Counted from the first letter of the stretch, positions 24,901-46,728 are shown. The stretch: DNA of 64,000 nucleotides from Clytia hemisphaerica (GCF_902728285.1 NW_027104280.1:483995-547994); one strand, 5' to 3'. Notes: generated by a model not told the origin, from the sequence alone. A program made the numbers and translations.

Positions 24901-24901
24901 T

Positions 24902-25090: not shown

Positions 25091-25174
25091 ACTTCTCTTG
25101 AAAACTAAAAAAAATTATATTCGCTCATCTCTTAGAACAACCACGACCCTGGATACCGCCTTACATTGTATATA

Positions 25175-25576: not shown

Positions 25577-25953
25577 AGGGCGGACAGTCAGGCACATCCT
25601 GGCAAATGAACGGGGTATTTTTCACTTGCGAACATTGGCAAATGAACGGGGTCGAAAACGAAAGTGACGTAATAGCGCCGAATACCTAGTTTAATTGAAC
25701 AGGGTTGGAATTATTTTGCTTCATTTCAAAGAACTTTTTTTCCATTGGTCAATTTTGTCTTCGAAGATTGAAGAAACTTTTAATGAAAAAATAAAGTTCC
25801 CAGTTTTCTTCCTTTTTTCCCTTTTTCAGTTTGAAGTTCATTTTTATTCATTTTCACGCTTTTAGCCTGAGACGTCCTATCTCATTTACACTGGGTGGTG
25901 GGTGACGAAATACCCCATGCAAATGCTCACCCTGTTCATTTGCCAGGATGTGC
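25577..25953. mobile_element. Element bounded by ~29-bp inverted repeats gtcaggcacatcctggcaaatgaacgggg
   Basis: Left copy at 25577-25605; reverse-complement copy at 25925-25953. Confidence 0.5.
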
Positions 25954-29066: not shown

Positions 29067-30655
29067 GTAAATGTTAGTTAACAATGATAACACTGATAGA
29101 CTTTTATTTTATCAATTTTTAGATATGCCACAGTTATCATGATAATTAAGAGATTATTTTAGATTGTAACTTTAAAATTAAGATTAATTTAAAATTTTAG
29201 ATTCCACCTAAAATGATAAATATTGAGTGAGTCATTCATTCATCTTTGTTGTTCTCTTAGGTTTGGGAAGCATTGTTGCAAGACATGCCAATGACAGCTA
29301 TGCTGCGAAACTTGGGGAAAATGACTTCCCTTGGTTTGTTTCAGAAGCCCGAAAACTTGAAAATTGTATTGGACGCTTTAGGTGATACAAATCGTCTTCA
29401 GAAAGCAAGAATTCATCCCATTAAGGTTGGAGTCAATTTATCTTACCTTTCCACTTTTAGCAGTTGATTACAATCAAGTCAGCTGATTCAGTTATTATTT
29501 TTGTGACCATTTTTATGATCCTCATTGTAAGTTCTTCTTACATTACATCTCTTCGTAATGCTAAACAATATTTCTTCACTTTCAGCTTTTGATTGGGATG
29601 AAAGCGTATGAAAATGGTGCTTCATTAAGTATGATGAGTTCTGTCACAAAGACAAACACAACAACATGGGAAGCAAACCAAGAAATTTTGAAAATCTTGG
29701 ATAAAGCCTTCTATAAAAGCTTTAAGGTAATAAGATTGTTTTTTCTTTCAATGCTGATGTTATGGTGTCAGAATGCTGTGATGTAGATTGAAATTTTCAA
29801 ACATGAAAAGCAAAAACTTCCTGAAATTTTAAAAATCTATATCTGCTATTATAAGTGATATCTGCTAATTTTCTCCTTTCAGCAACCAGAAACGCAAGAT
29901 GCATTTAGAACAGGGAAACGGTTTATGTTGGCATTGGATGTCAGTGGTTCAATGACATGTGGTGGCTGTAATGGTTGTGAACAGCTCACCCCCTCCATAG
30001 CTGCCACCGCACTCTCTATGGTCACATGGAATATAGAAGAGCACGTGGAAATGGTGGCCTTTGGTGGTCGTTTGGAGCGATTGGAAGATCATGGTTTACG
30101 CAAAGATTTGACCATCAATGATGCTTGGAGGAAGATGAGTCGGGTACTGATTATCATATTTCAGAGAATATTCTTTAATTCGTTCCAATCGTCTATTTTA
30201 CAAGACCTTTCCAACTCTAAAGTAGAGAAAGAATTCAAGTCTTCTGGGCTATTGAAAAAAAAAACTTTTTGGACCCATCTTTTCTACATTCAACAAATGC
30301 TCCAGAAATTTTTTATGTTGTGTTGTTTAATTGATTCGATAATGTTTTGTTTCAGATCAACTTTGGTTCAACAGATTGTGCGTTACCAATGAATTATGCG
30401 ATAGACCGTAATCTTGATATTGACGTCTTCATTGTTTACACCGATTCCGACACTAATTCATATAATCATCCTCACAAAGCATTGCAAAGATATCGCGAAA
30501 AGATGGGTAAACCTAACGCTAAACTCATCGTGATCGCCTTGACATCCAATGGGTTTTCTATCGCCGATCCTAACGACCGCCACATGCTGGATGTTGTTGG
30601 CTTTGATCCAGCTGTCCCTGAGATGATCTGCAATTTTGTTAACGACAGTTATTGA
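27894..30655 (+). CDS. RO60: Ro60/TROVE2-like RNA-binding protein, paralog A (TROVE + vWA with intact MIDAS), 5 exons
   Basis: join(27894..29066,29261..29425,29586..29726,29883..30143,30356..30655). Collinear with human Ro60 (recalled from memory): [109 protein letters not shown]. The start codon is uncertain: it is the first in-frame ATG before the TROVE core, and the ORF is open further upstream through a G/A/S-rich low-complexity stretch. Confidence 0.8.
29261..29425 (+). CDS. RO60: Ro60-like A exon 2 ([21 protein letters not shown]...ARIHPIK)
   Basis: Acceptor tcttag|gtt; donor aag|gttgga. 165 nt, phase 0. Confidence 0.8.
29586..29726 (+). CDS. RO60: Ro60-like A exon 3
   Basis: Acceptor tttcag|c; donor aag|gtaata. 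141 nt. Confidence 0.8.
29883..30143 (+). CDS. RO60: Ro60-like A exon 4 (vWA MIDAS, DVSGSM)
   Basis: Acceptor tttcag|caa; donor cgg|gtactg. 261 nt. Confidence 0.8.
30356..30655 (+). CDS. RO60: Ro60-like A exon 5 (terminal)
   Basis: Acceptor ttcag|atc; stop tga at 30653-30655. Confidence 0.8.
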
Positions 30656-30937
30656 GCATATCACTCATAACATTGGAGTCTTTCTCGGTGGCTTGAGTGA
30701 TCTCAGTACCACTGGACTCTTTTTTGAAATCGAGCTGTACCAAACTACGGACTCATTTAACCTTGTTTAGGCATTCTTACCTGAGTTGTGCGGGATTCGA
30801 TTGAGAAGCATATAATAAGAATTAATAAAAAGAGTCATAAGGCAGGGAACAAACAATTATATTTCTTGTATAGAAGCAGTTTACATTGAATGCTACACGC
30901 GAGGAGCTGGAAACCAATGTTTCATTCTTTTCAAAAT

Positions 30938-30945
30938 TGACGTCA
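30938..30945. promoter_or_regulatory. Palindromic CRE/ATF-type site TGACGTCA ~540 nt upstream of the paralog B ATG
   Basis: Exact TGACGTCA. Conserved at the equivalent position upstream of paralog C (40061-40068). Confidence 0.25.
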
Positions 30946-31483
30946 CTTCAAAAAACAATGAAATTTCATATACTGTACATACATGCAAGGAATCATTTAA
31001 AGTTTTATATTTCATTTTATTTTATTTTAAACGAACTATAACATCATGTTAGTTTTTTACCAATTTAATTGCTTAAAATATTGCATTGAGCTTGAAGCTC
31101 TTCTTTCAAAATTTAATCAATATATTATACAAAACTTTATAATATTACTTTTATTGTGATTTGATTTCTTTCAAAAATCAATTTCTTTTGTAAATAACCA
31201 TCATCAATATTGATATTGTTTTTGTTTGTGAACTATTTTTATAATCTTTGGAATAATATATCAAAACATTTTGTTTTTCCTCTGCTCTGTTGTCCAAGCT
31301 CCTGATTTCATTGCTTTTTTAGATGTGCTTTGTTAGTTTCTTTAAAAGAATATCCTTCTTAAAGCATTCTGTATTTACCTAATATCTATCATTTCTTTTA
31401 TTTCCACAGAAAAAAAAACAAAAGATATAAATAAACAAAAACACATTGACGGTCACCCTTAGAGGTGAAGAACCACAGCTACT

Positions 31484-32539
31484 ATGGATCCATTCAAAAA
31501 ACTTGCCCTTTTGAAGGCCAAAATGACCAGCATGAGTAGGGCCCAGATTGCGGAAGCCATCCGAAACATGACCCTGGGAGTAAACACAACAGAACAAGAG
31601 CCAGACCTTACTACACCACAAAATCAACCTTTGCAAGGACAGTCACAGAACTCTGCAGGTGGTTTTTCCTACACTGTAGATAATATAACCAGACTGAAAA
31701 GATATCTGATATTAGGTTCAGATAAAGCAAAATACAAGAGTGGCTCTCAAGCAGAAAATGTTCAAAACATTCCAGTTGTTGAAGAACTTTTAAAGGAGGG
31801 CAAGGGAAAGGAAGTGATTGATTTGATCGTTCAGTTTGCTCGTGAAGCACGTATCTCAAAAGAGGAGAACATTTTGATGGTATTACGTGATTGTATGATG
31901 TATCAGGGAGATACCATGTATGAAGATAGGACCATACAACGAGCTGCTTATGACAGTATTGTCAAAATCTGTAATATCCCAACCAAGCTTTTCCGATTGA
32001 TGGAGCTTTGTAAACCATGTTATCAAAATAATTGGAAGCCTTCAACCAAGCCAGTCAGTAAGACGCAACTACGGAAGAAAGCAAAACAAGCAGCTCAACA
32101 GCAGAATCCAGGGCCTTCCACCTCCACTGAAACTGCAACCGCTCAACCACCGTCAGCAAAAGTGCCAGTTGAAACATGTGAAATTGTTGAAGAGGGTGAA
32201 CCTCCCAAGAAAAAGAAAAAGAAGACGAAGAAGAAGAAAAAACCAAAGGAACCCAAACCTCAAACAACGCAAAGGTTCAAAAAATCTTCCAGTTGGGGAC
32301 GTGCTAGACGGCGTGGTGTCGGAAATTTTTACACCGATCCAAGTAAAGATGCCAATCGATTGTTATTGTTGATGACAAAGTACAAACAACGTCATAATTG
32401 GAACCATGTTCAAACGTTGGGTTATTGTCATCCAAAAATGATGGGAGACGAGGAACAAGCTAAGAATATCGTCCTCCAGTATTGCACACGTGGCAAAGAA
32501 AAGTTGGACAAATATCTGGTCAAGAAAAATATCGATGGG
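31484..32539 (+). CDS. RO60: Ro60-like B exon 1
   Basis: ATG at 31484; donor ggg|gtaacg. Confidence 0.8.
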
Positions 32540-35500
32540 GTAACGATATTTCATTCTTTTCTATTTCATTTTTTAAAAATTTGTAAGAAGAGATATGGTA
32601 CTTTCATCACTGTCTGTGTATTGTAGGGAAAAGTTTTCCCAAATCTCTAATCCTTTACTTACACAACATTTAAACAAAAGAAAGAACAACCCCATTTTCA
32701 GAGCTGTGCGAGCACAAATTTTGAGAAATTCTTTTGTTTGTTATACTTTGTCCACCAAGAGGCTTCTTATTAAAAAAGATCCTTAATATTTCCACTACCG
32801 TCCCTGAACACTTCCGGGAGGTAATCGAAAAAGGTCGAATCCAAATACAGCACCATGTATATGTATGTATCATGCCTGATCCAAGTTTAGTAAATATCAT
32901 GAAATTTTCACATTGATAACAATGGTTTCTTAATTTTTGGATTTTCTTTCCAGAATCAACCAATGGATCCAATCACATCTCAAATATTACAACACATAAA
33001 AGTTCTTGAGGAAGTCAAGAACCTGAAACCGGATGTCCCGGCCGATGTGAAGAGATTGCTGGAATTGTTGCACCAATACGGTATTCGGAAGGTGCCACAA
33101 GAATTTGATGTGGACGCTGCAGGTCAGATGGTACAAGTGGAAAACACTCAACGTAAAAAATGTTCTTTTCAACTGACCAGGGAGCATTTACCAAATGGCT
33201 TCCAAAAATTGAAGGAGGTAATAGTTGATCAATTAAACAAAATTTAAAACCGCTAATATACGGTTTTTTCAATCCCGATCAGCCCGATCAGATTTTGAAA
33301 GCTTGACTAAAAGCTCTTTTAATCGTAATTAAATACAATTTCACTCTACTCAACAATCCCAATCTTTCTCCATTAAAATTTTTAGGTTTGGGTGGCTCTA
33401 CTTCAAGACATGCCCATGACAGCCTTGATCAGGAATCTCGGCAAAATGACCAGCCTTGGGCTCTTTGATGATCCGGCAAACAGAGAAATCGTCAAGAAGG
33501 TTTTAGGGGATGGCTCTATTTTGAACAAAGCAAGAATTCACCCAGTCAAGGTTTGCTATTTATTTAGAGTGATGGCCAAGGTGCATAAACCAGGGGCTCC
33601 CTGCTTCTTTCGATGTTCCGATATTGAATAGGCATTTTTCGAGCCCTTTTAGTTTTGGCGCACGTTTTCTACATGCCAATAAAAGCCGGGTGTAAATTTA
33701 TGGGAATACGGTATTTATCTTTTTGCTTATTGGTGATATTTAACGTTAAATTTCGACAATTTTACACTTCACTACTCCTTACATGAATGATCAAATACCA
33801 ACTATATATCCATGCAGGGAAAATTAGAAAAGTAATGCGCCGTGATTGAACCTGTAAGTAATGCACCGTAATTGAACCTATAAATAATGCACCGTGATTG
33901 AACCTATAAGTGATGCACCGTGATTGAACTTGTAAGTAATGCACCGTGATTGAACCTGTAAGTGATGCACCGTGATTGAACCTGTAAGTAATGCACCGTG
34001 ATTGAACCTTGTTACAGATTCTGTTAGCATCAAAGATGTATGAGCAAGGCAATGGTGATCAAGGGCAAAGCCATCAACAACAACAAAAAAATCAAACAAT
34101 TAGTCAATCAACCAAAGAACCACTTACTTGGAGACCAAACGCTGAAATCTCCAAAGCTCTCAATGATGCTTTCTACTTAAGTTTCAGGGTAAGCTCTATT
34201 CTAGAAATGCAGGCATGGTTAACATAGTCAAGCATTCTGCTATAACGAATTCCTATGGCTCGTGCGCTAGAGTTTCATTTATCATTTGAACTTTTATATA
34301 CTTGCTAAAATTGATTAGTTTTCTTGAGAATCTCTTTCATTGTTTCCATAGCAACCCGGCAAGAATTCTTCATTCCGTACAGACAAAAAGTTCATGCTAA
34401 ATCTGGATGTTAGTGACTCTATGGATTGGGGTAACTGTGTAGGGTGTGATTTCCTGACGCCCGCTGCCGCCTCTTTCGCCCTGGCCATGATTACGATGAA
34501 TGTTGAGCCACATTGTAGTGTGTTTTCTTTCGGGGGAACGCTTCAAAATATCGATCATTTATTGAAGAGGGATATGACCATCCTTGAAGCCATTCAAGTG
34601 GGACGCTCTGTAAGTCGAGTCGAAGAAATCTTGTTTTAAATATTCTCATTACTTTATTTCTTCGAACTTGGGCCTCACATAAAACAGAACATCATTCTTA
34701 GAACGTCAAAAATGTCTAATTCCGAATTCTATTTGAATCTTTCTATAGTTCGAACTAATTCCCAGTCCCCATCAGCATCAATTTTCAATATTCCCTTTCG
34801 ACTTTGAATGAGCGAGACTAAAATATATACATTATCGGCCAAAACTTAGCCGGCCTCAATTATTAGTCGGCCCTAATTTTAGTCACATCATCAAAATTTA
34901 GTCACTTAGGGTCGACTAAATTTTGGCCGATAAGGTATAAAAAATCGACTTCCATGTCAATAGCTTTATTCCGCAATTTTCTGTGCTTTCTCTTTTTATC
35001 AGTTATGTCATCATGCCTCATTAAACTTAACTTAGGACATCCATATTATCTTTCAGCTCAATTTCGGTGCAACAGACTGTGCTCTACCAATGGTGCACGC
35101 CACGCAGAACAGGCTGGATGTGGACGTTTTCATCGTTTACACTGACTCCGAAACTTGGATTGGAAAAGTTCATCCTTCTGAAGCTTTAAAGAATTATCGG
35201 CAAAAGATGAACAAACCGGATGCCAAACTCATCGTCATGGCAATGAAGGTTTGTCTGTTCTCCACACGGCCCTGTAATGTAGTCTGTGCCTCTAAAGAAT
35301 CCTGCATTGTAACACACATGCTTAATTTGTCGTTCTTTAAACCATATATAGTTAATTCCCGTGATAAACAAAGAGGAATGAATCTGTAGGGGTGGTACCA
35401 TTGAGTTTCAAGCCGAAGGCTAGAGGTCAATCTCCTTGGTAGGATTTGAAGCCAACAAATCCTACCAAAGTTGCGCGGCCTTGAGCGACCCGCCTGGTTT

Positions 35501-38500
35501 TTACACAAATAACAGATTGAAACTAAAATTTACCGCTTAATTTCGAAAAATATATCACTCGAAAACAAAGGAATTGCTAGATTCAATCCGTCATCAAAAA
35601 TACGGCGCATATTTTAAGGCTTCAATTTTTCTTGCCTGAGAAAGGTTAGAGATTGACCTCTAGCCCTTCGGGCTTGAAACTCAATGGGTGGTACATGTCA
35701 CTTTCGGTCGGGGCTGTGGACGGCCAAATATGTCGATTTTTATGAAATTTGTCGTTTTTTTTGTCTATTTTTAGTAATGCAGGATTCTTTAGATAAACCC
35801 CTCATGATATTATGATATCTCGTTATAAAAAGTGATGGCATCAATTCATTTCAGTCGGTTTCAATCCTGTAAAACCTTAAAAACACACGGTGAATAGGTC
35901 ATCAACTTCTAGTTATTAGAATTCTGTAGATAACCCTTTTCTTTTTCATTGTATTCGAACTCTTTGTATGACTTCCCAAGGGAATGTTGTGGTGCTTATA
36001 AAGACTTTTTTACAGGTTTTGTACGGGATTGTTGTGGTGCATATAAAGACTTTTTTACAGGTTTTGTACGGGAATGATGTGATGCATATTAAAACTTTTT
36101 TACAGGTTTTGTACGGGATTGTTGTGGTGCATATAAAGACTTTTTGACAGGTTTTGTACGGGAATTTTGTGATGCATATAAAGACTTTTTTACAGGTTTT
36201 GTACGGGATTGTTGTGGTGAATATAAAGACTTTTTTACAGGTTTTGTACGGGATTGTTGTGATGCATATAAAGACTTTTTTACAGGTTTTGTACGGGATT
36301 GTTGTGGTGCATATAAAAACTTTTTACAGGTTTTGTACGGGAATGATGTGATGCATATTAAAACTTTTTTGCCTGTTTTTACAGGTTTTGTACGGGGTTG
36401 TTGTGGTGAATATAAAGACTTTTTTACAGGTTTTGTACGGGATTGTTGTGGTGCATAGAAAGACTTTTTTTACAGGTTTTGTACGGGATTGTTGTGGTGA
36501 ATATAAAGACTTTTTTACAGGTTTTGTACGCGGATTGTTGTGGTGAATATAAAGACTTTTTTACAGGTTTTGTACGGGATTGTTGTGATGTATATAAAGA
36601 CCTTTATTACAGGTTTTGTACGGGATTGTTGTGATGTATATAAAGAATTTTTTACAGATTTTGTACGGGATTGTTGTGGTGAATATAAAGACCTTTTTAC
36701 AGGTTTAGTACGGTAATGTTGTAGTGAATATAAAGACCTTTTTTACAGGTTTTATACGGGATTGTTGTGGTGAATATAAAGAGTTTTTTACAGGTTTTGT
36801 ACGGGATTGTTGTGGTGCATATAAAAACTTTTTACAGGTTTTGTACGGGAATGATGTGATGCATATTAAAACTTTTTTACCTGTTTTTACAGGTTTTGTA
36901 CGGGGTTGTTGTGGTGAATATAAAGACTTTTTTACAGGTTTTGTACGGGATTGTTGTGGTGCATAGAAAGACTTTTTTTACAGGTTTTGTACGGGATTTT
37001 TGTGGTGAATATAAAGACTTTTTTTACAGGTTTTGTACGCGGATTGTTGTGGTGAATATAAAGACTTTTTTACAGGTTTTGTACGGGATTGTTGTGATGT
37101 ATATAAAGACCTTTATTACAGGTTTTGTACGGGATTGTTGTGATGTATATAAAGAATTTTTTACAGATTTTGTACGGGATTGTTGTGGTGAATATAAAGA
37201 CCTTTTTACAGGTTTAGTACGGTAATGTTGTAGTGAATATAAAGACCTTTTTTACAGGTTTTATACGGGATTGTTGTGGTGCATATATATTTTATTTTAT
37301 TGGACCTACCCCAGTGGAGGTCCTATAAATTAACCGTTGTATGTTCGTTCGTTCGTTACCAGCTTTTCTCGAGATTGGCTCATTAGTTTTTTCTGATTTT
37401 TTGCACAAAGATGCATAACTATAAACCCTCGAATGTGACGGAGCCCGATTTTCGAAAAAAAAATTTTTAGGCAAATCTGGGCCAAAAAACGGCTAAAAAA
37501 CGGGTTTTTTGGACTTTGTGAAAAATTGGATCATTAATTTTTTCTGATTTTTTGTATCAAAGTAGGGTACCATCATAGGTAAAAGATGGCTCAGGCAGAT
37601 TTTTGTAAAAAAAATTTTTTGGCTCAAAAACGCATGTTTATCTATAAGAATCACTATTAATAAGCATACATCAATGTTCTTAGTCAAATTACTCAATTAT
37701 TTTTATGAGATAGATGTATTTTTTGCTATTGAGGGCTTACTTTTGAAGAATATGTGTGTTTAGACATGAAATTTAGGCTGCTTGGCGTGCTTTTATAGAA
37801 AAACTGGCCTAATTCGATATTTTTTTATAAGCACATTATCAATTACTTAGGTATTAGCTTTTCTCGAGTTTGGCGCTTTCATTCTTTATGATTTTTTGCA
37901 CAAAGATGCATAACTATAAACCCTCGAATGTGACGGAGCCCGATTTTCGAAAAAAAAATTTTTTAGGCAAATTTGGGCCAAAAAACGACTAAAAAACAGG
38001 TTTTTTGGACTTTGTGAAAAATTGGATCATTAATTTTTTCTGATTTTTTGTAGGATAGTAGGGTATCATCATAGGTGAAAGATGGCTCAAGCAGATTTTT
38101 GCAAAAAAAATTTATTGGCTTAAAAAACGCATGTTTATCTATAAGAATCAATATTAATAAGCATACATCAATGTTCTTAGTCAAATTACTAAATTTTATT
38201 ATGAGATCGATGTGTTTTTTTGCTCACGAAGTCTTGAATATGAAAGAATATTTATAGAGCATGAAATTTTGGTTTCTAAACGGTTTTTTATAAGAAACAA
38301 ACGATTAATTTTAATAGATCGTCACTATTAGTGTTCTGAATGATTGTTTAATGGTCACGCTCACGTAGATATCAATTATATATGTGTTAAATGCATAACC
38401 AGGTAGGTCCATAAAGGTATCACTTGTTTTATTTTATTTTTATTTTCCAATTTATTTAACGTTGGGCTGACATCGTTATAATTAAAAATACTAATTAATA

Positions 38501-39377
38501 CCAACTATATAGAATACAATATAGTATAGAATAATAAATTTAAAATTTTTTTTTATGTGTATATTTTACAATGACAAATATTTGTAAGATTTAGTTTTTC
38601 TTTCAGACTTTTTTTTTACAGTTTTTGTACGGGATTGTTGTGGTGAATATAAATACCTTTTTTACAGGTTTTGTACGGGAATGTTGTGGTGCATATAAAA
38701 ACTTTTTTTACAGGCTTTGTACGGGATTGTTGTGGTGAATATAAAAACCTTTTTTACAGGTTTTGTACGGGATGGTTGTGGTGAATATAAAGACCTTTTT
38801 TACAGGTTTTTGTACGGGATTGTTGTGGTGAATATAAATACCTTTTTTACAGGTTTTGCACGGGAATGTTGTGGTGCATATAAAAACCTTTTTTACAGGT
38901 TTTTGTACGGGATTGTTGTGGTGAATATAAATACCTTTTTTGCAGGTTTTGTACGGGAATGTTGTGGTGCATATAAAAACCTTTTTTACAGGTTTTGTAC
39001 GGGATTGTTGTGGTGAATAGAAAACCTTTTTACGGTTTTGTTGGTTGTGGTAAAACCTTACAGGTTTTTTCTTTGGTTGGTTGTGGTGAATATAAAGACC
39101 TTTTTTACAGGTTTTGTACGGGATGGTTGTGGTGAATATAAAGACCTTTTTTACAGGTTTTGTACGGGATTGTTGTGATGCATATAAAGACCTTTTTTAC
39201 AGGTTTTGTACGGGATTGTTGTGATGATTATAAAGACCTTTTTTCTTCTCTCCATTTTTCAAGGTTAATGATTTCACGATCGCCAATCCACTCGATCGCG
39301 GTATGTTTGACATTTGCGGATTCGATTCTAACGTACCTGACCTGATCTGCGAGATCGCCAGAGGAAATATGTCTTAA
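31484..39377 (+). CDS. RO60: Ro60/TROVE2-like paralog B, 7 exons; the last intron (~4 kb) is filled by 45-bp satellite arrays and a MITE
   Basis: join(31484..32539,32954..33217,33386..33550,34018..34188,34352..34609,35057..35248,39264..39377). The ATG is preceded by an in-frame TGA. Motifs: [97 protein letters not shown]. The terminal exon VNDFTIANPLDRGMFDICGFD aligns residue for residue with A's contiguous [22 protein letters not shown]. Confidence 0.8.
32954..33217 (+). CDS. RO60: Ro60-like B exon 2
   Basis: Acceptor tttccag|aat; donor gag|gtaata. Confidence 0.75.
33386..33550 (+). CDS. RO60: Ro60-like B exon 3
   Basis: Acceptor ttttag|gtt; donor aag|gtttgc. 165 nt, as in A and C. Confidence 0.8.
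33831..34009. repeat. 26-bp minisatellite, about 7 units, directly upstream of the exon 4 acceptor of paralog B; each unit carries GTAAGT
   Basis: Unit cctgtaagtaatgcaccgtgattgaa, with variants. Confidence 0.85.
34018..34188 (+). CDS. RO60: Ro60-like B exon 4 (contains a Q-rich tract)
   Basis: Acceptor tgttacag|att; donor agg|gtaagc. Confidence 0.75.
34352..34609 (+). CDS. RO60: Ro60-like B exon 5 (MIDAS, DVSDSM)
   Basis: Acceptor ccatag|caa; donor tct|gtaagt. Confidence 0.8.
34831..34935. mobile_element. Hairpin MITE (ttatcggcc...ggccgataa) inserted in intron 5 of paralog B; the site is empty in paralog C
   Basis: B has aaatatatac[attatcggcc...ggccgataagg]tataaaaaatcgact. C has aaatatatttaaaaatcgact at 44527. 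Confidence 0.65.
35057..35248 (+). CDS. RO60: Ro60-like B exon 6
   Basis: Acceptor tttcag|ctc; donor aag|gtttgt. Confidence 0.75.
35985..37290. repeat. 45-bp satellite array, about 29 units, with ~510-bp higher-order periodicity, in the last intron of paralog B
   Basis: Unit ttttttacaggttttgtacgggattgttgtggtgcatataaagac. One frame is stop-free, which produces periodic pseudo-ORFs reading YKDFFTGFVRDCCGA. Confidence 0.9.
37302..38410. mobile_element. GGACCTACC-family element, two nested or tandem copies, in the last intron of paralog B
   Basis: ggacctaccccagtggaggtcc at 37302. The internal module is repeated at 37860. Ends aggtaggtcc at 38402-38410. Confidence 0.7.
38595..39245. repeat. Second array of the same 45/46-bp satellite, abutting the terminal-exon acceptor of paralog B
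   Basis: Variant unit ccttttttacaggttttgtacgggaatgttgtggtgcatataaaaa. It ends about 20 nt before the acceptor at 39263. Confidence 0.9.
39264..39377 (+). CDS. RO60: Ro60-like B terminal exon
   Basis: Acceptor tttttcaag|gtt; stop taa at 39375-39377. Direct homolog of C's terminal exon. Confidence 0.7.
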   Translation, partial: VNDFTIANPLDRGMFDICGFDSNVPDLICEIARGNMS

Positions 39378-39396
39378 AATCACCAAACAAAGAGAA

Positions 39397-39612
39397 ATGA
39401 AATCCAAACTTTTCTGGTTAGCCTTTGTTTACATGGCTCTAGCTGCTTGTGATTTGGTAATGGTGGTCTTAACATTCATATCGGGAAGAACGGAATTGAT
39501 ACATTATCAACCAGCAAAAAGAGAACGACCATCATTGACTTATTGCAGGGTCCTTGGATTACTGGACAGGTGGGTCAAGCAGGTGATACGAGTTCTGCTG
39601 TTCACTAATTGA
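39397..39612 (+). CDS. Possible downstream small ORF (71 aa, one predicted TM helix) starting 20 nt after the paralog B stop
   Basis: ATG in the context gagaaATGa. LFWLAFVYMALAACDLVMVVLTFI is hydrophobic. Conserved at 45520 after paralog C, but the C-terminal part is frameshifted between copies. Confidence 0.2.
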   Translation: MKSKLFWLAFVYMALAACDLVMVVLTFISGRTELIHYQPAKRERPSLTYCRVLGLLDRWVKQVIRVLLFTN

Positions 39613-40060
39613 GAAGATCTGTAGATTAGCACCCGTGTTTTTCAGTAGCCTGTTTTTTTTTTTTGGGGGGGGGGGTTAGAAATTGTAATTACGAAACCCC
39701 AAAAATAAGGTAAATATAGGCTAAAATCAGGCTATTTAAAGCAGAATAAGGGACCCTCTCTTAGAAAGTTGAAAAAAAATAATTAAAAATTAATAAACGG
39801 GGGGGGTCCTAATAAGGTCCGGTGGGGGGGGGGCTGGAAAATTTTCGAAAAATTAACAAGCGGGGCCCGTTTGTTTGGAACCTAAGAGTACTTGGAGTTG
39901 TGCGGGATTCGATTGAGAAGCATAAGAATCTATAAAGAGAGAGTCATAAGGCATAGGGAACAATGATATTGATATTGATGTATTTTATTGTATAGAAGCA
40001 GTTTACATAGAATGCTACACGTTCAGGAGCTGGAAATCAGTGTTTCATTCCTTCCGAAAT

Positions 40061-40068
40061 TGACGTCA
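40061..40068. promoter_or_regulatory. Palindromic CRE/ATF-type site TGACGTCA upstream of paralog C
   Basis: Exact TGACGTCA in a block conserved with the B upstream region. Confidence 0.25.
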
Positions 40069-40434
40069 CTTCAATAAACTATGAAATTTCATATACTGTA
40101 CATGCAAGGAATCATTTCAAATTTTATATTTTATTTCATTTTATTTACAAACTATAATAACATAATTTTACCATTTAATTTCTTAATTGCATTGAGTTTG
40201 AAGCTCTTCTTTCTTTCGAAATTTGATCATTAAATTATACACAACTTTATTTATTACTTTTATTATGATTTTATTTCTTTCAAAAATCAATTCTTTTGTA
40301 AATAGGCATCTACATTCTGGTGAGTGTTGTTTGTGAACTATTTTTATAATCTTTGGAATAATATATCAAAACACTTTGTTTTTCCTCTGTTGTCCAAGCT
40401 CCTTATTTCATTGCTTTTTTAGATATGCTTTGTT

Positions 40435-40765
40435 CCCGGGGGGGGGGGGCAGTGGGTTTTCCAACTGACGGTATGTGCAGCGAAAAAATTGGCTTTTAGA
40501 ATTGCTCCCTTACAGTGCAGAAAAAAATTGGTGAAATTCATACCCTTACAGTGCATTTTTTCAAATTTTAAACTCTTTTAGGGTGGAAAAATCAAGATTT
40601 TTGGGCAAAAATTTGCCATTTTTCCTAGATTTGCTGAAATTTCCACCCTTATGGTGCATTTATCAAAAGACCACCCTTTTGCATTTCTGCTATTTTGAAA
40701 AACATACCCTTAATCGCCGCACATACCCGTTGGTCAATTAGCCTGACTGCCCCCCCCCCTGGGGC
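40435..40765. mobile_element. ~330-bp insertion with G-run TIRs (cccgggggggggggcagt / actgcccccccccccctgggg) in the upstream region of paralog C; absent upstream of B
   Basis: The B upstream sequence agatgtgctttgttagtttctttaaaag is interrupted in C by this block. It contains internal degenerate repeats cccttacagtgcatttttt. Confidence 0.55.
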
Positions 40766-40913
40766 TTTTTTAGTATCTTTAAAAGAGTATCTTTCTTAAA
40801 GTATTCAGTATTTACCTAATATCTATCATTTCCTTTATTTCCACAGAAAAAAATTAATAAATATACAAAAACACATTGACGGCCACCCTTAGAGGTGAAG
40901 AACCACAGCTACT

Positions 40914-41981
40914 ATGGACCCATTCAAACAACTTGCCCTTTTGCAGGCTAAAATGGCCGGCATGAGTAGGGCCCAGATTGAGGAAGCCATCCGAAACATG
41001 ACCCTGGGAATAAACCCAACAGAACAAGAGCCAGACCTTACTACACCACAAAATCAACCTTTGCAAGGACAGTCACAAAACGCTGCAGGTGGTTTTTCCT
41101 ATACTGTTGATAATATAACCAGACTGAAAAGATATCTGATATTAGGTTCAGATAAAGCAAAATACAAGGGTGGCTCTCAAGCAGAAAATATTCAAAATAT
41201 TCCAGTTGTTGAAGAACTTTTAAAGGAGGGTAAAGGAAAGGAAGTGATTGATTTGATCGTTCAGTTTGCTCGTGAAGCACGTATCTCAAAAGAGGAGAAC
41301 ATTTTGATGGTATTACGTGATTGTATGATGTATCAGGGAGATGCCATGTATGAAGATAGGACCATACAACGAGCTGCTTATGACAGTATTGTCAAAATCT
41401 GTAATATCCCAACCAAACTTTTCCGATTGATGGAGCTTTGTGAACCATGTTATCAAAATAATTGGAAGCCTTCAACCAAGCCAGTCAGTAAGACGCAACT
41501 ACGGAAGAAAGCAAAGCAAGAGGCAATACAAGCAGCTCAACAGCAGAACCCAGGGCCTTCCACCTCCACTGAAATCCCGGCCGCTCAACCAACGTCAGCA
41601 AAAGTGCCAGTTGAAACATGTGAAATTGTTGAAGAGGGTGAACCTCCAAAGAAAAAGAAAAAGAAGACGAAGAAGAAGAAAAAACCAAAGGAACCCAAAC
41701 CTCAAACAACGCAAAAGTTCAAAAAATCTTCAAGTTGGGGACGTGCTAGACGGCGTGGTGTCGGAAATTTTTACACCGATACTAGTAAAGATGCCAATCG
41801 ATTGTTATTGTTGATGACAAAGTACAAACAACGTCATAATTGGAACCATGTTCAAACTTTGGGTTATTGTCATCCAAAAATGACGGGAGACGAGGAACAA
41901 GCTAAAAACATCGTCCTCCAGTATTGCACACGTGGCAAAGAAAAGTTGGACAAATATCTGGTCAAGAAAAAAATCGATGGG
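40914..41981 (+). CDS. RO60: Ro60-like C exon 1
   Basis: ATG at 40914; donor ggg|gtaacc. Confidence 0.8.
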
Positions 41982-44900
41982 GTAACCATATCTCATTCCT
42001 TTCTATTTTATTTTTTTTTAATTTGTAAGAAGAGATATGATACTTTCGTCACTGTCTTTGTAGTGAGAATTTATCTCGAATCTGTTCAAATGACACCACT
42101 TACTTTATTAATCTCCTACCATTTGCTTACATGGCATTTTTAATCTCGCGTCGTGCGAGCACAAATTTTGATAATTTCTTTTGTTTGTTATACTTTGTCG
42201 GCATAGAAGCTTCTTATTAAAAAAGAAGATCCTTATTATTTCCACACACTCCCTGGAGCTGGTAATCGAAAAAGGTTGAATCCAAGTTTAGTAAATATCA
42301 TGAAATTTTTCACATTGATAACAAGGTTTTCTTAATTTTTGGACTTTCTTTCCAGAATCAACCAATGGATCCAATCACATCTCAAATATTACAACACATA
42401 AAAGTTCTTGAGGAAGTCAAGAACCTGAAACCGGATGTCCCGGCCGATGTGGAGAGATTGTTGCAATTGTTGCATCAATACGGTATTCGGGAGGTGCCAC
42501 AAGAATTTGATGTGGACGCTGCAGGTCAGATGGTACAAGTGGAAAACACTCAACGTAAAAAATGTTCTTTTCAACTGACCAGGGAGCATTTACCGAATGG
42601 CTTCCAAAAATTGAAGGAGGTAATAGTTGATCAATTAAACGAAACTTAAAACCGCTAATATACGGTTTTTTCAATCCCGATCAGCCCGATCAGATTTTCT
42701 ATTGATCGAAAGTTAGTCCTTGAAAGCTTGACTAAAAGCTCTTTTAATCGTAATTAAATACTTAAATGGTTCCAATTTCACTCTACTCATGAATACCAAT
42801 TTTTCTCCCTTAAAATTTTTAGGTTTGGGTGGCTCTACTTCAAGACATGCCCATGACAGCCTTGATCAGGAATCTCGGCAAAATGACTAGCCTTGGGCTC
42901 TTTGATGATCCAGCAAACAGAGAAATCGTCAAGAAGGTTTTAGGGGATGGCTCTATTTTGAACAAAGCAAGAATTCACCCAGTCAAGGTTTGCTATTTAT
43001 TTAGAGTGGCGGCCAAGGCGCATAAACCAGGGGCTCCCTGCTTCTGTCGATGTTCCGATATTGAATAGGCTTTTTTCGAGCCCTTTTAGTTTTGGCGCAC
43101 GTTTTGTTCTATACGACAATAAAAGCCGCGTGTAAATTTATGGGAATAAGGTATATCTATTTGCTTACTGGTGATATTTAACGTTGAATTTCCACGGTCT
43201 TAAGGCCGGTCTCCACTTGCGCGTGCTGCGATCGCATTTTTTGGCTTCAGTGCTTTTTGCTTGGATAAAAGATTACGTCATAAAAATGTAGCGCACGCTC
43301 GAAAAAAAAGTTGAACACATTTCAACTTTTTTCAACCGTTAACGTCAGATCGCGCCAATGGAGTTGCTTCATTTTTCTTTTGACCAATAGCGTGGAGGCT
43401 TCGCCCGAAAAAGTGCGATCGAAGCGCGCGCAAGTGGAGACCGGCCTTTACACTGCACCTTACATGAATGATCAAATACCAACTATATATCCATGAGGGG
43501 AAAAGTAGAAAACTGTTTCTTACTTGATGAATTTGTAAGTGATGCACCGTGATTGAGCCTGTAAGTAATGCACTCTGATTGAACCTGTAAGTAATGCACC
43601 CAGATTGAACCTTGTTTCAGATTCTGTTAGCATCAAAGATGTATGAGCAAGGCCATGGTGATCAAGGCCAAAGCCATCAACCACAACAAGAATATCCAAC
43701 AATGAGTCTTTCTCAACAACTACGACAACAACGACAACGACAACAACAGCCACAACAACCACAACAACGAGTACCAACCAAAGAACCACTTACTTGGATA
43801 CCAAACGCTGAAATCTCCAAAGCTCTCAATGATGCTTTCTACTTAAGTTTCAGGGTAAGCTCTACTTTAGAGATGCAAGCATGGTTAACATAGTCAATCA
43901 TTCTGGTATAGCGAATTCCTATGGCTCATTTTGAACTTTTATATACTTGCTAAAATTGATTAGTCTTCTAGAGAATCTCTTTTAATATTTCCATAGCAAC
44001 CCGGCAAGAATTCTTCCTTCCGTACGGACAAAAAGTTCATGTTAAATCTGGATGTTAGTGGCTCTATGGATTGGCGTAACTGTGTAGGGTGTGATTTCCT
44101 GACGCCCGCTGCCGCCTCTTTCGCCCTGGCCATGATTACGATGAAAGTTGAGCCACATTGTAGCGTGTTCGCTTTCGGGCGCACGCTTCAAAATATCGAT
44201 CATTTATTGAAGAGGGATATGACCATCCGTGAAGCCATTCAATTGGGACGCTCTGTAAGTCGACTTCACTATCAAGAAATCTCGTTTTGAATTATTCTCA
44301 TTTCTTTATTTCTTCGAACTTGTGTCTTACCTAAATCAGAATATACATCATTCTCAAAAAGTCAAAAATGTCTACGGTTGACTCTCGCTAATTCCGAATT
44401 ATATTTGAATCTTTCTAGAGTTTAAACTAATTCCCAGTCTCCATCAAAGTAGAAGCCTCTTTATTTCGAATATTTCTGTAATTCGAGCAAATCAGACTTC
44501 CCTTTCGACTTTGAATGAGCGAGACTAAAATATATTTAAAAATCGACTTCAATGTCAATAGTTTAATTCCAAAATTTTCTGTGCTTCTTTTATCAGTTAT
44601 GTCATCATGCCTCATTAAACTTAACTTAGGACATCCGTATATCTTTCAGATCAACTTTGGTGCAACAGACTGTGCTCTACCAATGGTACACGCCACGCAG
44701 AACAGGCTGGATGTGGACGTTTTCATTGTTTACACTGACTCCGAAACTTGGGTTGGAAAAGTTCATCCTTCCGAAGCTTTGAAGAATTATCGTCTAAAGA
44801 TGAACAAACCGGATGCCAAACTCATTGTCATGGCAATGCAGGTTTGTCTGTTCTCCATTTCACGGCCTGTAATGCTGGAATATATGCAGTCTGTTCCTCT

Positions 44901-45500
44901 AAAGAATCCTGCATTGTAACACGGATGCTTAATTTGTCGTTCTTTAAAAACCATATATAGTTAATTCCCGTGATAAACAAAGAAGAATGAATCTGTAGGG
45001 TTGGTACAAGTCACTTTCGGTCGGAGCTGTGGACGGCGAAATATGTCGTTTTTTATGAAATTTGTCGTTCTTTTTGTCTATTTTTAGTAATGCAGGATTC
45101 TTTAGATAAACCCCCTCGTCATGATATTATGATATCTCGTTATAAAAAGTGTTGGCATCAATTCATTTCATTCGATTTCAATCCTGTAAAACCTTTAAAA
45201 CACACGGTGAATAGGTCATCAACTTCTAGTTATTAGAATTCTGTAGATAAATCATTCTTTTTCATTGTATTTGAACTTTTCGCACACTTGGGATTGTTGT
45301 GGTGCATATAAAGACCTCTTTACAGGTTTTGTACGGGATTGTTGTGATGAATATAAAGACCTTTTTTCTTCTCTCCATTTTTCAAGGTTAATGATTTCAC
45401 GATCGCCGATCCACTCGATCGCGGTATGTTTGACGTTTGTGGATTCGATTCTAACGTACCTGACATGATCTGCGAGATCGCCAGAGGAAATATGTCTTGA
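40914..45500 (+). CDS. RO60: Ro60/TROVE2-like paralog C (recent duplicate of B), 7 exons
   Basis: join(40914..41981,42356..42619,42823..42987,43621..43854,43997..44254,44650..44841,45387..45500). Exons are about 93-97% identical to B. MIDAS DVSGSM. Exon 4 carries an expanded (CAA/CGA)n polyQ tract. Confidence 0.8.
42356..42619 (+). CDS. RO60: Ro60-like C exon 2
   Basis: Acceptor tttccag|aat; donor gag|gtaata. Confidence 0.75.
42823..42987 (+). CDS. RO60: Ro60-like C exon 3
   Basis: Acceptor ttttag|gtt; donor aag|gtttgc. Confidence 0.8.
43203..43447. mobile_element. MITE with 21-bp TIR aggccggtctccacttgcgcg and TTA target-site duplication, in intron 3 of paralog C; absent from paralog B
   Basis: tcTTA|aggccggtctccacttgcgcg...cgcgcaagtggagaccggcct|TTAcac. 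B has the unoccupied site. Confidence 0.75.
43535..43612. repeat. Same 26-bp minisatellite, 3 units, upstream of the exon 4 acceptor of paralog C
   Basis: tgtaagtgatgcaccgtgattgagcctgtaagtaatgcactctgattgaacctgtaagtaatgcacccagattgaacc. Confidence 0.8.
43621..43854 (+). CDS. RO60: Ro60-like C exon 4 (polyQ expanded)
   Basis: Acceptor ttgtttcag|att; donor agg|gtaagc. 234 nt versus 171 nt in B. Confidence 0.75.
43997..44254 (+). CDS. RO60: Ro60-like C exon 5 (MIDAS)
   Basis: Acceptor ccatag|caa; donor tct|gtaagt. Confidence 0.8.
44650..44841 (+). CDS. RO60: Ro60-like C exon 6
   Basis: Acceptor tttcag|atc; donor cag|gtttgt. Confidence 0.75.
45291..45372. repeat. Two-unit remnant of the 45-bp satellite just upstream of the paralog C terminal-exon acceptor
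   Basis: ggattgttgtggtgcatataaagacctctttacaggttttgtacgggattgttgtgatgaatataaagacc. Confidence 0.8.
45387..45500 (+). CDS. RO60: Ro60-like C terminal exon
   Basis: Acceptor tttttcaag|gtt; stop tga at 45498-45500. Confidence 0.7.
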   Translation, partial: VNDFTIADPLDRGMFDVCGFDSNVPDMICEIARGNMS

Positions 45501-45519
45501 AATCACCAAACAAAGAGAA

Positions 45520-45729
45520 ATGAAATCTAAACTTTTCTGGTTAGCCTTTGTTTACATGGCTCTAGCTGCTTGTGATTTGGTGCCGGTGGTCTTAATATTC
45601 ATATCGCGAAAAACGGAATTGATACATTATCAACCAGCAAAGAGAATGACCAACTTTGACTTATTGTATGTTCCTTGGATTACTGGACAGGTGGGTCAAG
45701 CAGGTGATACAAGTTCTGTTGTTCACTGA
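45520..45729 (+). CDS. Possible downstream small ORF (69 aa), paralog of 39397-39612
   Basis: Same ATG context and N-terminal 42 aa. The C-terminus differs by a frameshift. Confidence 0.2.
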   Translation: MKSKLFWLAFVYMALAACDLVPVVLIFISRKTELIHYQPAKRMTNFDLLYVPWITGQVGQAGDTSSVVH

Positions 45730-46728
45730 CTGAAAAGATTCGCAGATTAGGACCCGTGTTTTTCAGTAACCTGTTTTGGCACTAAATGCAAAGGTAGAAA
45801 CTTTTAAACACGTGCTAATCTATAATTTTACATAAATAGTAAGTAATAGTTTTGTTGAGCGACTGGAGTCACCTTTTCGTGAATCTTTGGTTTGTCAGGG
45901 GGTTAAACCAACGTAGCCGAATGCCCTTCTATCAGCGGTACAAACCGTAAACTGTATCAGCTGCTTGACCCTCCCTATTGACACTATGCTATCCTTTGGT
46001 AAATCCAAAGGCAAAGGCATGAGAAATATGAACATTAATTGACGAAAGATTCAAATGATGTATGGAAGCTAATACCAATGTTATTCGTAAATATTATTTG
46101 GATCAAGGGATAATTTAATAATAACAATGCTTGTTTTTGTATCATGTATTCAGTGTTTTATGCTTTTAATCATCTTTTTATACGGTACATTTTAATTTGT
46201 ATACATAACTTCAACTATAGGCCTCTCGGATGGCTTCCTGGCACAAAGTAAGTTTGTTTTTGGTAAGTTTAGAAAGTTAACAAAGATTTTGCTTGAAAGG
46301 CTCAATCCAGGGTTTGCTTGTTAGTTTGTAGTTTTTCAATAGATTTTATTATATTATTTCATTTACGCCTTATATTTTATTACTGTATTGTCTAAACAAT
46401 ACTGCATGTTGTCATTCTGCGGGTGTATTTTTTTGCCTTGCTTATTCAAACAGTTTCAACCCTCTGTGTGTAAACAAGTCGGTCTGTATCTCAAGTAGGT
46501 GACTGCTTCTAACAATGGAGCACAATGACCATCTTTCAAGCATCCCTTCGTAGTGATTCTACGTGCATATAAGTCATTCGCTATTTCTCTGTCTTCATTT
46601 AATAGCCTTTCTAAGTTGAAACTTGGGAATAAATCTATAGCATTTGTTTATTTTTAGCAAAGACATACAATTAAATAACAAAAAAAAATTAAAACTACAT
46701 AAAACAACACATATAGTTGAAGATTGTG

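What the first reader, a model, noticed from the sequence alone, without database searches (positions are those of the whole stretch)
30781..45790. Recent tandem duplication (B and C units) that has since diverged by TE insertions, satellite expansion and a coding polyQ expansion
Unit B (~30781-39899) and unit C (~39900-45790) are collinear and highly similar, from the shared gagttgtgcgggattcgattgagaagcata block through promoter, all seven exons, introns and the post-stop sORF. Differences are discrete events: a MITE in C intron 3 (43203-43447, TSD TTA); a hairpin MITE in B intron 5 (34831-34935); a G-run-TIR insertion in the C promoter (40435-40765); a 45-bp satellite amplified to ~2 kb in B's last intron but only 2 units in C; and a (CAA/CGA)n expansion that lengthens exon 4 by 21 codons in C (43621-43854 versus 34018-34188). 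This gives a time-ordered record of mobile-element and satellite dynamics within one locus.
Basis: seen in the sequence. Interest (0 to 1): 0.55.

Follow-up and report, generated by a model that had tools for sequence, protein, structure and literature searches.

The report
Tandem duplicated Ro60-like genes in Clytia
Two neighbouring copies of a Ro60-like RNA-binding protein gene in the jellyfish Clytia hemisphaerica are a real but ordinary tandem duplication, and the copies now differ by small transposon insertions, repeat-array growth and a glutamine-rich insertion in one coding exon.

Summary
Window 30783-39656 (B) and 39895-45777 (C) are collinear through upstream DNA, seven exons, six introns and the 3'UTR. 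Aligned pieces are 82-94% identical.

The window comes from Clytia hemisphaerica. The gene is a Ro60-like protein with TROVE and vWA domains. Both copies have intact reading frames and GT-AG introns (B 739 aa, C 764 aa). dS is 0.095 and dN/dS is 0.28. Noncoding divergence is about 12%, more than ten times the reported within-strain polymorphism.

- a 288-bp MITE in B's last intron;
- a 1.3-kb insertion splitting the satellite in phase;
- a 26-bp minisatellite difference in intron 3;
- a 12-nt indel in exon 1;
- a 238-bp repeat-derived spacer between the units.

The "promoter" label is partly wrong: the left 340 bp of B is the 3'UTR of an older upstream paralogue (A). B/C mRNAs also appear to be spliced-leader trans-spliced.

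A 0.8-kb low-divergence tract and mosaic B/C transcripts suggest gene conversion, which would blur the "time-ordered record".

B and C are the youngest pair in a five-gene Ro60-like array. This is an ordinary young tandem duplicate of modest interest.

The parts
30783..39656 (+). Duplication unit B (8874 bp): tail of paralogue A's 3'UTR, the spacer before the gene, Ro60-like gene B and its 3'UTR
   Evidence: Collinear with C. The left edge lies inside the A mRNA.
39657..39894 (.). 238-bp spacer between the units. It matches neither the DNA before B nor the DNA after C and contains three G-runs.
   Evidence: It has short matches to a G-run repeat at 23388-23422 and 23799-23820 on the minus strand.
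39895..45777 (+). Duplication unit C (5883 bp)
31484..39377 (+). Gene B coding region, 739 aa. Exons: 31484-32539, 32954-33217, 33386-33550, 34018-34188, 34352-34609, 35057-35248, 39264-39377.
   Evidence: Intact ORF with all GT-AG introns. It is identical to the C-terminal 743 residues of the NCBI fused A+B model XP_066929417.1.
40914..45500 (+). Gene C coding region, 764 aa. Exons: 40914-41981, 42356-42619, 42823-42987, 43621-43854, 43997-44254, 44650-44841, 45387-45500.
   Evidence: It is 100% identical to XP_066929344.1, 'RNA-binding protein Ro60-like [Clytia hemisphaerica]'. cDNA L003 confirms the splice junctions.
40435..40763 (.). 329-bp G-run inverted-repeat element inserted upstream of gene C, about 85 bp before the leader acceptor. 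Its 8-bp target-site duplication is at 40427-40434 and 40764-40771.
   Evidence: The empty site is in B at 31327-31334.
43203..43447 (.). 245-bp MITE in C intron 3 with 46-nt inverted repeats and a TTA target-site duplication
34826..34939 (.). Hairpin MITE of about 111 bp in B intron 5 with 30-nt inverted repeats. The target-site duplication is probably TA.
   Evidence: The fold has z = -8.3.
35399..35686 (.). Near-perfect inverted repeats of about 37 nt. The 8-bp target-site duplication GGTGGTAC is at 35391-35398 and 35687-35694.
   Evidence: The empty site is in C at about 44990-44998.
35980..37287 (+). Left satellite array in B intron 6: period 45, 28.5 units, containing a roughly 505-bp internal duplication at 95.6% identity
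37288..38611 (.). 1324-bp insertion that splits the satellite in phase. It consists of an element with GGACCTACC inverted ends, internally duplicated, and about 190 bp of AT-rich DNA.
   Evidence: A related copy lies at 11316-11938, with fragments at 13169-14413 and 58907-59889.
38612..39244 (+). Right satellite array in B intron 6: period 46, 14.1 units, ending 19 bp before exon 7
45290..45367 (+). The same satellite in C intron 6, only about 2 units
33830..34009 (+). 26-bp minisatellite at the 3' end of intron 3. B has 6.9 copies; C has 3.0 copies at 43534-43612.
43709..43771 (+). 63-nt imperfect CAA/CGA/CCA repeat that adds 21 codons (a Q/R/P-rich peptide) to C exon 4
   Evidence: The outgroup alignment gives the polarity.
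41516..41527 (+). 12-nt in-frame indel in exon 1, adding QEAI in C
32880..33700 (+). Low-divergence tract (exon 2, intron 2, exon 3 and flanks). This is a candidate gene-conversion tract. The C counterpart is about 42280-43140.
   Evidence: Noncoding mismatch is 4.8% here against 11.8% elsewhere, Fisher P = 1e-5.
24561..31126 (+). Older paralogue A (776 aa). Its exons from cDNA L005 are 24561-24660, 27636-29068, 29259-29425, 29563-29726, 29878-30143 and 30352-31126. Its 3'UTR overlaps the start of unit B.

Best explanation
**What it is.** B and C are true paralogues made by one head-to-tail duplication of a segment of about 5.5-6 kb in the Clytia hemisphaerica genome. The duplicated segment ran from inside the 3'UTR of the upstream paralogue A to about 280 bp past the stop codon of a Ro60-like gene.

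**How the junction formed (inferred).** The junction carries 238 bp of repeat-derived filler. No matching repeat lies at the outer borders. This favours a non-homologous or replication-based origin over unequal crossing-over between flanking repeats.

**What has happened since (shown).**
- Both copies have stayed intact protein-coding genes under purifying selection.
- Four small inverted-repeat elements have inserted, two in each copy. A fifth, composite insertion sits inside the B satellite.
- A 45-bp intronic satellite is about 2 units in C and about 42 units in B.
- A 26-bp minisatellite differs in copy number.
- A trinucleotide-type repeat has expanded by 63 nt in a disordered, lineage-specific loop of the C protein.

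**Further inferences.** Parts of the pair have probably been re-homogenised by gene conversion. The genes appear to be expressed as spliced-leader trans-spliced mRNAs in a same-strand array of five Ro60-like paralogues.
For: - **Collinearity.** It runs through noncoding DNA at 82-94% identity. There is no third DNA-level copy in the window.
- **Source.** The asparagine synthetase exon at 17080-18459 is 100% identical to the Clytia hemisphaerica protein. C is XP_066929344.1. B is part of XP_066929417.1 on the same 1.34-Mb contig.
- **Family.** Pfam finds TROVE and vWA_Ro60. Human Ro60 (9nen) matches at E = 5.7e-83.
- **Selection.** Both ORFs are intact with GT-AG introns. dS = 0.095, dN = 0.026 and dN/dS = 0.28. 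Derived amino-acid changes are balanced, 16 on B and 12 on C.
- **Not alleles.** Noncoding K is 0.118. The sequenced, three-times self-crossed strain has about 0.9% polymorphism (10.1101/369959).
- **Insertions.** All have inverted repeats, target-site duplications and empty sites in the other copy.
- **Satellite.** TRF and unit analysis are. The array is in phase across the 1.3-kb insertion.
- **Timing.** A relative's contig, L001, has one B/C-like gene followed by a D-like gene. This places the B/C duplication after that split.
- **Expression.** Spliced cDNAs with the long exon 4 (L003) and the short exon 4 (L002, L006) occur in three metatranscriptomes.
Against: - I could not examine read depth or junction-spanning reads, so an assembly artefact is not formally excluded.
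- No transcript with a pure B structure (B exons 1-7) was found outside the NCBI fused A+B model.
- All database transcripts with the short exon 4 carry C-type 3' exons. B's independent expression is therefore unproven.
- Divergence varies from K = 0.04 to 0.23 between segments. A single date for the duplication is therefore unreliable.
- Only one copy of each small element, apart from the satellite insert, lies in the 64-kb window. That they belong to multi-copy transposon families is inferred from their structure, not shown.
Confidence: 0.85

Rival explanations
1. Assembly artefact. B and C would be two divergent haplotypes (alleles) of one gene that the assembler placed head to tail.
For: Marine invertebrate assemblies often hold uncollapsed haplotypes. 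The original Clytia assembly needed haplotype merging. Environmental cDNAs show 2-4% divergence from the reference and mosaic B/C patterns.
Against: - Noncoding divergence of about 12% plus more than 15 indels is over ten times the 0.9% polymorphism of the self-crossed strain.
- The window has no N gaps.
- The duplicated block has sharp borders that enclose exactly one gene. Neither A's coding region nor D's flank is duplicated.
- dN/dS is 0.28 and derived changes are balanced.
- NCBI annotation places both on one contig.
Confidence: 0.05
2. An older duplication kept similar by concerted evolution. The pair would be much older than 10% divergence suggests, and repeated gene conversion keeps exons and some introns alike. 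Copy-specific insertions would then mark only the time since the last conversion of each segment.
For: - The 0.8-kb tract 32880-33700 has 4.8% noncoding divergence against 11.8% elsewhere, P = 1e-5. Central intron 1 reaches 27-30%.
- B-state runs occur in C-type environmental cDNAs, and C-type exons flank a B-type exon 3-4.
Against: - Distal upstream DNA and the 3'UTR, which are less likely to be constrained, still align at 87-92%.
- The relative on L001 has only one B/C-like gene.
- Metatranscriptome assemblers can create such mosaics by bubble-popping between paralogues that are 95% identical.
Confidence: 0.25
3. B is no longer an independent gene. Transcription would read through from B into C, and B's 5' exons would be spliced onto C's 3' exons. 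The pair would then behave as one composite gene with alternative 5' modules, perhaps because B's last intron now holds 4 kb of satellite and transposon DNA with about 42 acceptor-like TTTTTTACAG motifs.
For: - UniProt isoforms A0A7M5V9F7, A0A7M5UMJ3 and A0A7M5VEV0 switch from B to C exactly at exon borders, after exon 3, 4 or 6.
- cDNA L006 has a B-type exon 4, C-type exons 5-7 and the C-specific 3' flank.
- Exon phases are identical in both copies, so all such chimeras stay in frame.
Against: - L006 carries a B-state at the first exon 5 diagnostic site, and L002 has C-type exon 2 upstream of B-type exons 3-4. Simple B-to-C cis-splicing cannot give either pattern.
- The isoforms are short-read models on near-identical paralogues.
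- B's exon 7, its acceptor and its stop codon are intact, and NCBI's model uses them.
Confidence: 0.15

Closest known systems
Ro60 / TROVE2 (human 9nen, Xenopus 1yvp; bacterial Rsr 2nvo)
   Same: It has the TROVE HEAT-repeat region and a C-terminal vWA domain. The match to human Ro60 is E = 5.7e-83 across four collinear stretches. A DxSxS motif is present (DVSGS in C, DVSDS in B; read).
   Different: - The proteins are 739-776 aa, against about 540 aa for canonical Ro60.
- They carry a roughly 90-aa lysine-rich insert, a roughly 45-aa insert, and the Q-rich loop where human Ro60 has no gap.
- Five same-strand paralogues lie side by side. I found no paper describing Ro60 in cnidarians.
Young tandem gene duplicates in cnidarian genomes (e.g. 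'Pervasive tandem duplications and convergent evolution shape coral genomes', PMC10236652, title seen)
   Same: It is a head-to-tail copy of a whole gene with its flanks. Both copies are retained under purifying selection.
   Different: Nothing essential differs. This is one well-resolved example, in a hydrozoan rather than a coral. I saw only that paper's title and the start of its abstract; I did not read the paper.
MITEs: hAT-like (8-bp target-site duplication), Tourist/PIF-like (TTA/TAA) and Stowaway-like (TA). These family definitions come from general knowledge.
   Same: The elements are 111-329 bp and non-coding. They have terminal inverted repeats of 19-46 nt and target-site duplications of 8, 3, 8 and probably 2 bp. 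Each has a clean empty site in the sister copy.
   Different: No second copy of the four small elements lies in the window. No autonomous partner was identified. Superfamily assignment rests only on duplication length.
Intronic minisatellite (VNTR) expansion
   Same: The array has 45/46-bp units, 85-90% similarity between units and higher-order duplications. Copy number differs about 20-fold between the two copies.
   Different: Each unit carries a polypyrimidine tract followed by CAG|GT. The array abuts the 3' splice site of an intron that paralogue A, paralogue D and the L001 orthologue lack.
Hydrozoan spliced-leader trans-splicing and operon-like gene pairs (Hydra flp-RFC140, PMC3273482)
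   Same: - B/C cDNAs begin with about 25 nt that is absent from the window and ends in ATAAG. This leader is joined at a CCACAG acceptor conserved in both copies.
- The genes lie on the same strand. In cDNA L005, A's 3'UTR aligns up to 31126, about 280 bp before B's acceptor.
- Trans-splicing is reported for the common ancestor of Clytia and Hydra.
   Different: I could not compare the leaders with published Clytia spliced-leader sequences. Polycistronic transcription is not shown. The A mRNA itself starts with genomic sequence.

Membership tests
Tandem segmental duplication | Two adjacent same-strand copies that are collinear through noncoding as well as coding DNA | tested here: met
   The upstream region, all six introns and the 3'UTR align at 77-96% identity per segment.
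Tandem segmental duplication | A real feature of the genome, not an assembly artefact (read depth, spanning reads) | not testable with these tools
   No reads are available. Indirect support: divergence is 13 times the strain's polymorphism, and both genes lie on one annotated NCBI contig.
Ro60 / TROVE family | A TROVE domain followed by a Ro60-type vWA domain | tested here: met
   PF05731 and PF25045 match above their gathering scores. PDB Ro60 matches at E = 5.7e-83.
Ro60 / TROVE family | Metal-ion site motif DxSxS in the vWA domain | tested here: met
   DVSGS in C and DVSDS in B, read from the translations. The motif definition comes from general knowledge.
Ro60 / TROVE family | Binding of Y RNA or misfolded RNA | not testable with these tools
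   No Rfam family, Y RNA included, matches in the window at gathering score.
MITE | Short and non-coding, with terminal inverted repeats and a target-site duplication | tested here: met
   Searches cover elements 40435-40763, 43203-43447, 34826-34939 and 35399-35686. The TA duplication of the hairpin element is uncertain.
MITE | Many dispersed copies in the genome | tested here: inconclusive
   The four small elements have no other copy in the 64-kb window, and the rest of the genome could not be searched. The 1.3-kb satellite insert does have relatives at 11316-11938, 13169-14413 and 58907-59889.
Minisatellite | Head-to-tail units of 10-100 bp with variable copy number | tested here: met
   TRF finds 45 bp x 28.5 and 46 bp x 14.1 in B, and 26 bp x 6.9 in B against x 3.0 in C. 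C has about 2 units of the 45-bp repeat.
Coding trinucleotide (polyQ) expansion | An in-frame run of CAG/CAA codons gained by slippage | tested here: inconclusive
   The 63-nt insert is in frame and built from CAA, CGA and CCA triplets. It encodes QQLRQQRQRQQQPQQPQQ, not a pure Q run. Outgroups have shorter loops. Slippage is inferred.
Spliced-leader trans-spliced gene | A non-genomic 5' leader joined at a 3' splice site upstream of the ATG | tested here: inconclusive
   L002 and L003 have leaders ending in ATAAG that are absent from the window. Identity with known Clytia spliced leaders could not be checked.

The most novel reading that the evidence does not exclude
The B-C pair may not be two independent genes. 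It could be an interacting unit within an operon-like, spliced-leader trans-spliced array of five hydrozoan-specific "long" Ro60 paralogues. In this reading, read-through transcripts splice B's 5' exons onto C's 3' exons in frame, ectopic conversion shuffles exon blocks between the copies, or both occur. The locus would then produce a set of Ro60 variants that differ in the Q-rich loop and the N-terminal half.
Probability: 0.15. Interest if true: 0.55.

Novelty: new member of a known kind. Interest (0 to 1): 0.3.

Why it matters
**As a duplication.** The locus is a clean, fully resolved example of how a young gene duplicate diverges in a repeat-rich cnidarian genome. Transposon insertions with preserved empty sites, satellite growth, a coding repeat expansion and a probable conversion tract all lie within 15 kb. 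It could serve as a genotyping marker set for Clytia strains.

**As a gene family.** Clytia and its relatives carry a previously undescribed long form of Ro60 with a lysine-rich insert. In Clytia it has expanded to five adjacent genes. Ro60 is usually discussed as a single RNA-quality-control gene, so a multi-copy family in a laboratory model jellyfish offers a way to study how Ro60 function diversifies.

None of this changes current understanding.

Tried and rejected
- **Third DNA-level copy.** None exists in the window. Paralogues A, D and E are detectable only at protein level.
- **Structured RNAs.** Rfam at gathering score and a tRNA scan over the whole window found nothing.
- **Pfam on D and E.** No hit. 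Their TROVE relationship rests on weak BLAST matches (E = 2e-7 to 4e-4) and on D's 35% match to the second gene of L001.
- **Unequal crossing-over between flanking repeats.** Rejected as the origin. The spacer's G-run repeat has no counterpart before B or after C.
- **Exact-product look-ups.** Those for the GPCR ORF and for the NCBI asparagine synthetase protein found nothing.
- **Dating intron gain or loss with canonical Ro60 genes.** The chiton gene is intronless, and the mussel gene has one intron at an unrelated position. This was uninformative.
- **Published Clytia spliced-leader sequences.** The paper is not held.
- **Literature on Ro60 in cnidarians or Clytia.** No paper found.
- **The post-stop short ORF.** It is present in both copies but frame-shifted after about 42 codons. 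I treat it as 3'UTR.


Full report
**Source and gene.** The window has 36% G+C and no gaps. An exon at 17080-18459 on the minus strand is 100% identical to the NCBI protein "asparagine synthetase-like [Clytia hemisphaerica]". The window is therefore from this hydrozoan jellyfish. Its genome is reported as 35% G+C, about 41% repeats and about 0.9% polymorphism in the self-crossed sequenced strain (10.1101/369959). The ORFs inside the finding match Pfam TROVE (PF05731) and the Ro60 vWA domain (PF25045). The full C protein matches human Ro60 (PDB 9nen) at E = 5.7e-83.

**The observation.** A self-comparison of the whole window shows no third DNA-level copy. The global alignment runs through upstream DNA, all exons, all introns and the 3'UTR. 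True homology spans B 30783-39656 and C 39895-45777. A 238-bp spacer (39657-39894) lies between them and matches neither flank.

**Gene models.** Both copies have seven exons with canonical GT-AG introns and open reading frames of 739 aa (B) and 764 aa (C).
- C is identical to XP_066929344.1, "RNA-binding protein Ro60-like".
- B is identical to the downstream part of XP_066929417.1, a 1553-aa model that fuses paralogue A with B.
- Three spliced cDNA contigs from separate JGI metatranscriptomes (L002, L003, L006) confirm the exon junctions.

**Divergence.**
- Amino-acid identity is 694/739.
- dS = 0.095, dN = 0.026 and dN/dS = 0.28.
- Aligned noncoding DNA differs at 11% of sites (K = 0.118). 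Exons differ at 3.8%.
- When amino-acid differences are polarised with seven outgroup proteins, 16 changes fall on B and 12 on C. Neither copy looks like a decaying pseudogene.
- Noncoding divergence is about 13 times the strain's polymorphism. This argues against B and C being alleles.

1. C upstream element 40435-40763. It has 19-nt G-run inverted repeats and an 8-bp duplication, GCTTTGTT/GCTTTTTT. B has the empty site at 31327-31334.
2. C intron 3 element 43203-43447. It has 46-nt inverted repeats flanked by TTA on both sides.
3. B intron 5 hairpin 34826-34939. It has 30-nt arms and folds with z = -8.3.
4. The satellite. B holds 28.5 units of 45 bp (35980-37287) and 14.1 units of 46 bp (38612-39244). 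C holds about 2 units (45290-45367).
5. Exon 4 is 171 nt in B and 234 nt in C. The extra 63 nt (43709-43771) are CAA/CGA/CCA triplets that encode a Q/R/P-rich peptide. In the alignment with human Ro60 this falls where the human protein has no gap, so it is a lineage-specific loop. Paralogue A and the nearest relatives have shorter loops, so the long form in C is derived.

- A 288-bp element in B intron 6 (35399-35686) with near-perfect inverted repeats and an 8-bp duplication, GGTGGTAC.
- A 1324-bp insertion (37288-38611) that interrupts the satellite while keeping its phase. It consists of an internally duplicated element with GGACCTACC ends and about 190 bp of AT-rich DNA. Relatives lie at 11316-11938 and elsewhere in the window.
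- A 505-bp higher-order duplication inside the left array at 95.6% identity.
- A 26-bp minisatellite abutting exon 4, with 6.9 copies in B and 3.0 in C.
- A 12-nt indel in exon 1, and about ten further indels of 9-49 bp.

**The "promoter" label.** A cDNA of paralogue A (L005) maps to exons 24561-24660, 27636-29068, 29259-29425, 29563-29726, 29878-30143 and 30352-31126. A's 3'UTR therefore covers the first 340 bp of unit B, and the duplication breakpoint lies inside that UTR. The B/C-type cDNAs L002 and L003 begin with about 25 nt that end in ATAAG and are absent from the window. These leaders are joined at a CCACAG acceptor about 65 nt upstream of the ATG, and the acceptor is conserved in both copies. 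Spliced-leader trans-splicing is reported for the common ancestor of Clytia and Hydra (PMC3273482), so I infer that these mRNAs are trans-spliced. I could not compare the leaders with published Clytia leaders.

**Origin of the duplication.** The spacer contains three G-runs and short matches to a G-run repeat at 23.4-23.9 kb. No such repeat sits before B or after C. Unequal crossing-over between flanking repeats is therefore unlikely. A non-homologous or replication-based duplication with filler DNA, or a later insertion at the junction, fits better. This step is inference.

**Heterogeneity and exchange.** Noncoding divergence is 4.8% in 32880-33700 and 11.8% elsewhere (Fisher P = 1e-5). Central intron 1 reaches 27-30%.

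Database sequences are mosaic at the sites that distinguish B from C:
- Three UniProt isoforms switch from B to C exactly at exon borders.
- L002 and L006 carry the short B-type exon 4 with C-type exons 5-7.
- L006 runs into the C-specific 3' flank.

Read-through splicing, gene conversion or recombinant haplotypes, and assembler chimeras between 95%-identical paralogues could each produce parts of this pattern. I could not separate them. As a result, the locus gives only "after the duplication" bounds for most events. The one ordered pair is that the satellite existed before the 1.3-kb insertion.

**Context.** B and C are the youngest members of a same-strand array.
- A (776 aa) is 43% identical to C.
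- D (about 47.4-51.5 kb) and E (about 53.8-55.7 kb) are very divergent TROVE-like genes.
- A contig from a related organism (L001, ENA ERZ25072490) has one B/C-like gene followed by a D-like gene. The array is therefore old and the B/C split is lineage-specific.
- A, B, C and proteins P0133-P0139 share a lysine-rich insert of about 90 aa that canonical Ro60 lacks.
- I found no paper on Ro60 in cnidarians.

**Verdict.** It is a well-preserved but ordinary young tandem duplicate. Interest is modest. The more unusual aspects are the five-gene long-Ro60 array, the likely trans-splicing and the B/C mosaic transcripts. They need transcript and population data to evaluate.

Noticed in passing
window 27525-30655 (A), 47421-51521 (D), 53845-55720 (E): B and C belong to a same-strand array of five Ro60/TROVE-like paralogues. 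A is 43% identical to C. D and E are so divergent that Pfam no longer detects them. A related contig (L001) conserves the order of a B/C-like gene followed by a D-like gene.
   Followed up: partly
protein residues about 176-268 of C (window 41439-41717) and the equivalent in A, B and P0133-P0139: A "long Ro60" subfamily of 730-1011 aa carries a lysine-rich insert of about 90 aa (KKKKKKTKKKKKPKEPKP). Canonical Ro60 of about 540 aa lacks it. The insert may be a nuclear or nucleolar targeting signal or an RNA-binding tail.
   Followed up: partly
window about 31408-31409 and 40845-40846; L002:1-25, L003:1-26: B/C-type cDNAs start with non-genomic leaders ending in ATAAG, joined at a conserved CCACAG acceptor. 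This suggests spliced-leader trans-splicing. In cDNA L005, A's 3'UTR aligns up to 31126, only about 280 bp upstream of B's acceptor, which looks operon-like.
   Followed up: partly
B/C introns 1 (32540-32953 / 41982-42355), 3 and 6 (35249-39263 / 44842-45386): Introns 1 and 6 are absent from paralogue A. Intron 6 is absent from D. Introns 1, 3 and 6 are absent from the B/C-like gene on L001. Introns 3 and 6 both have tandem repeats abutting their 3' splice sites, and each 45-bp unit contains TTTTTTACAG|GT. Whether these introns were gained or lost is unresolved.
   Followed up: partly
L002, L006, P0197-P0199 versus window B and C: Transcripts and isoform models mix B-type and C-type exon blocks. 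A short exon 4 combined with C-type 3' exons is seen in three independent sources. The cause could be read-through splicing, gene conversion, a fusion haplotype or assembler chimeras. I could not tell which.
   Followed up: partly
L003:2893-3350 versus window 45995 onward: The C-type environmental cDNA leaves the reference sequence at 45994 and continues with unrelated sequence that starts CAGGGGTCACAC. This may be an insertion polymorphism in the 3'UTR or a chimeric contig.
   Followed up: no
window 3504-3870 and 4151-4510: A 367-bp inverted repeat at 95% identity with 280 bp between the arms, next to a C-run at 3428-3438. It is probably a foldback-type transposon.
   Followed up: no
window 11316-11938, 13169-14739, 58907-60258: Dispersed and locally tandem copies of the repeat family that also inserted into the B satellite. 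The family includes a 153-bp tandem repeat at 13206-13489.
   Followed up: partly
window 5514-6536 (-) and 17080-18459 (-): A single-exon rhodopsin-family GPCR ORF of 340 aa (7tm_1, E = 2.4e-13) and the large 3' exon of asparagine synthetase. Both are ordinary flanking genes.
   Followed up: partly
window 30874-30975: NCBI's 1553-aa model XP_066929417.1 joins A to B through a 34-codon exon that lies inside A's 3'UTR. It is either a read-through transcript or an annotation artefact.
   Followed up: no
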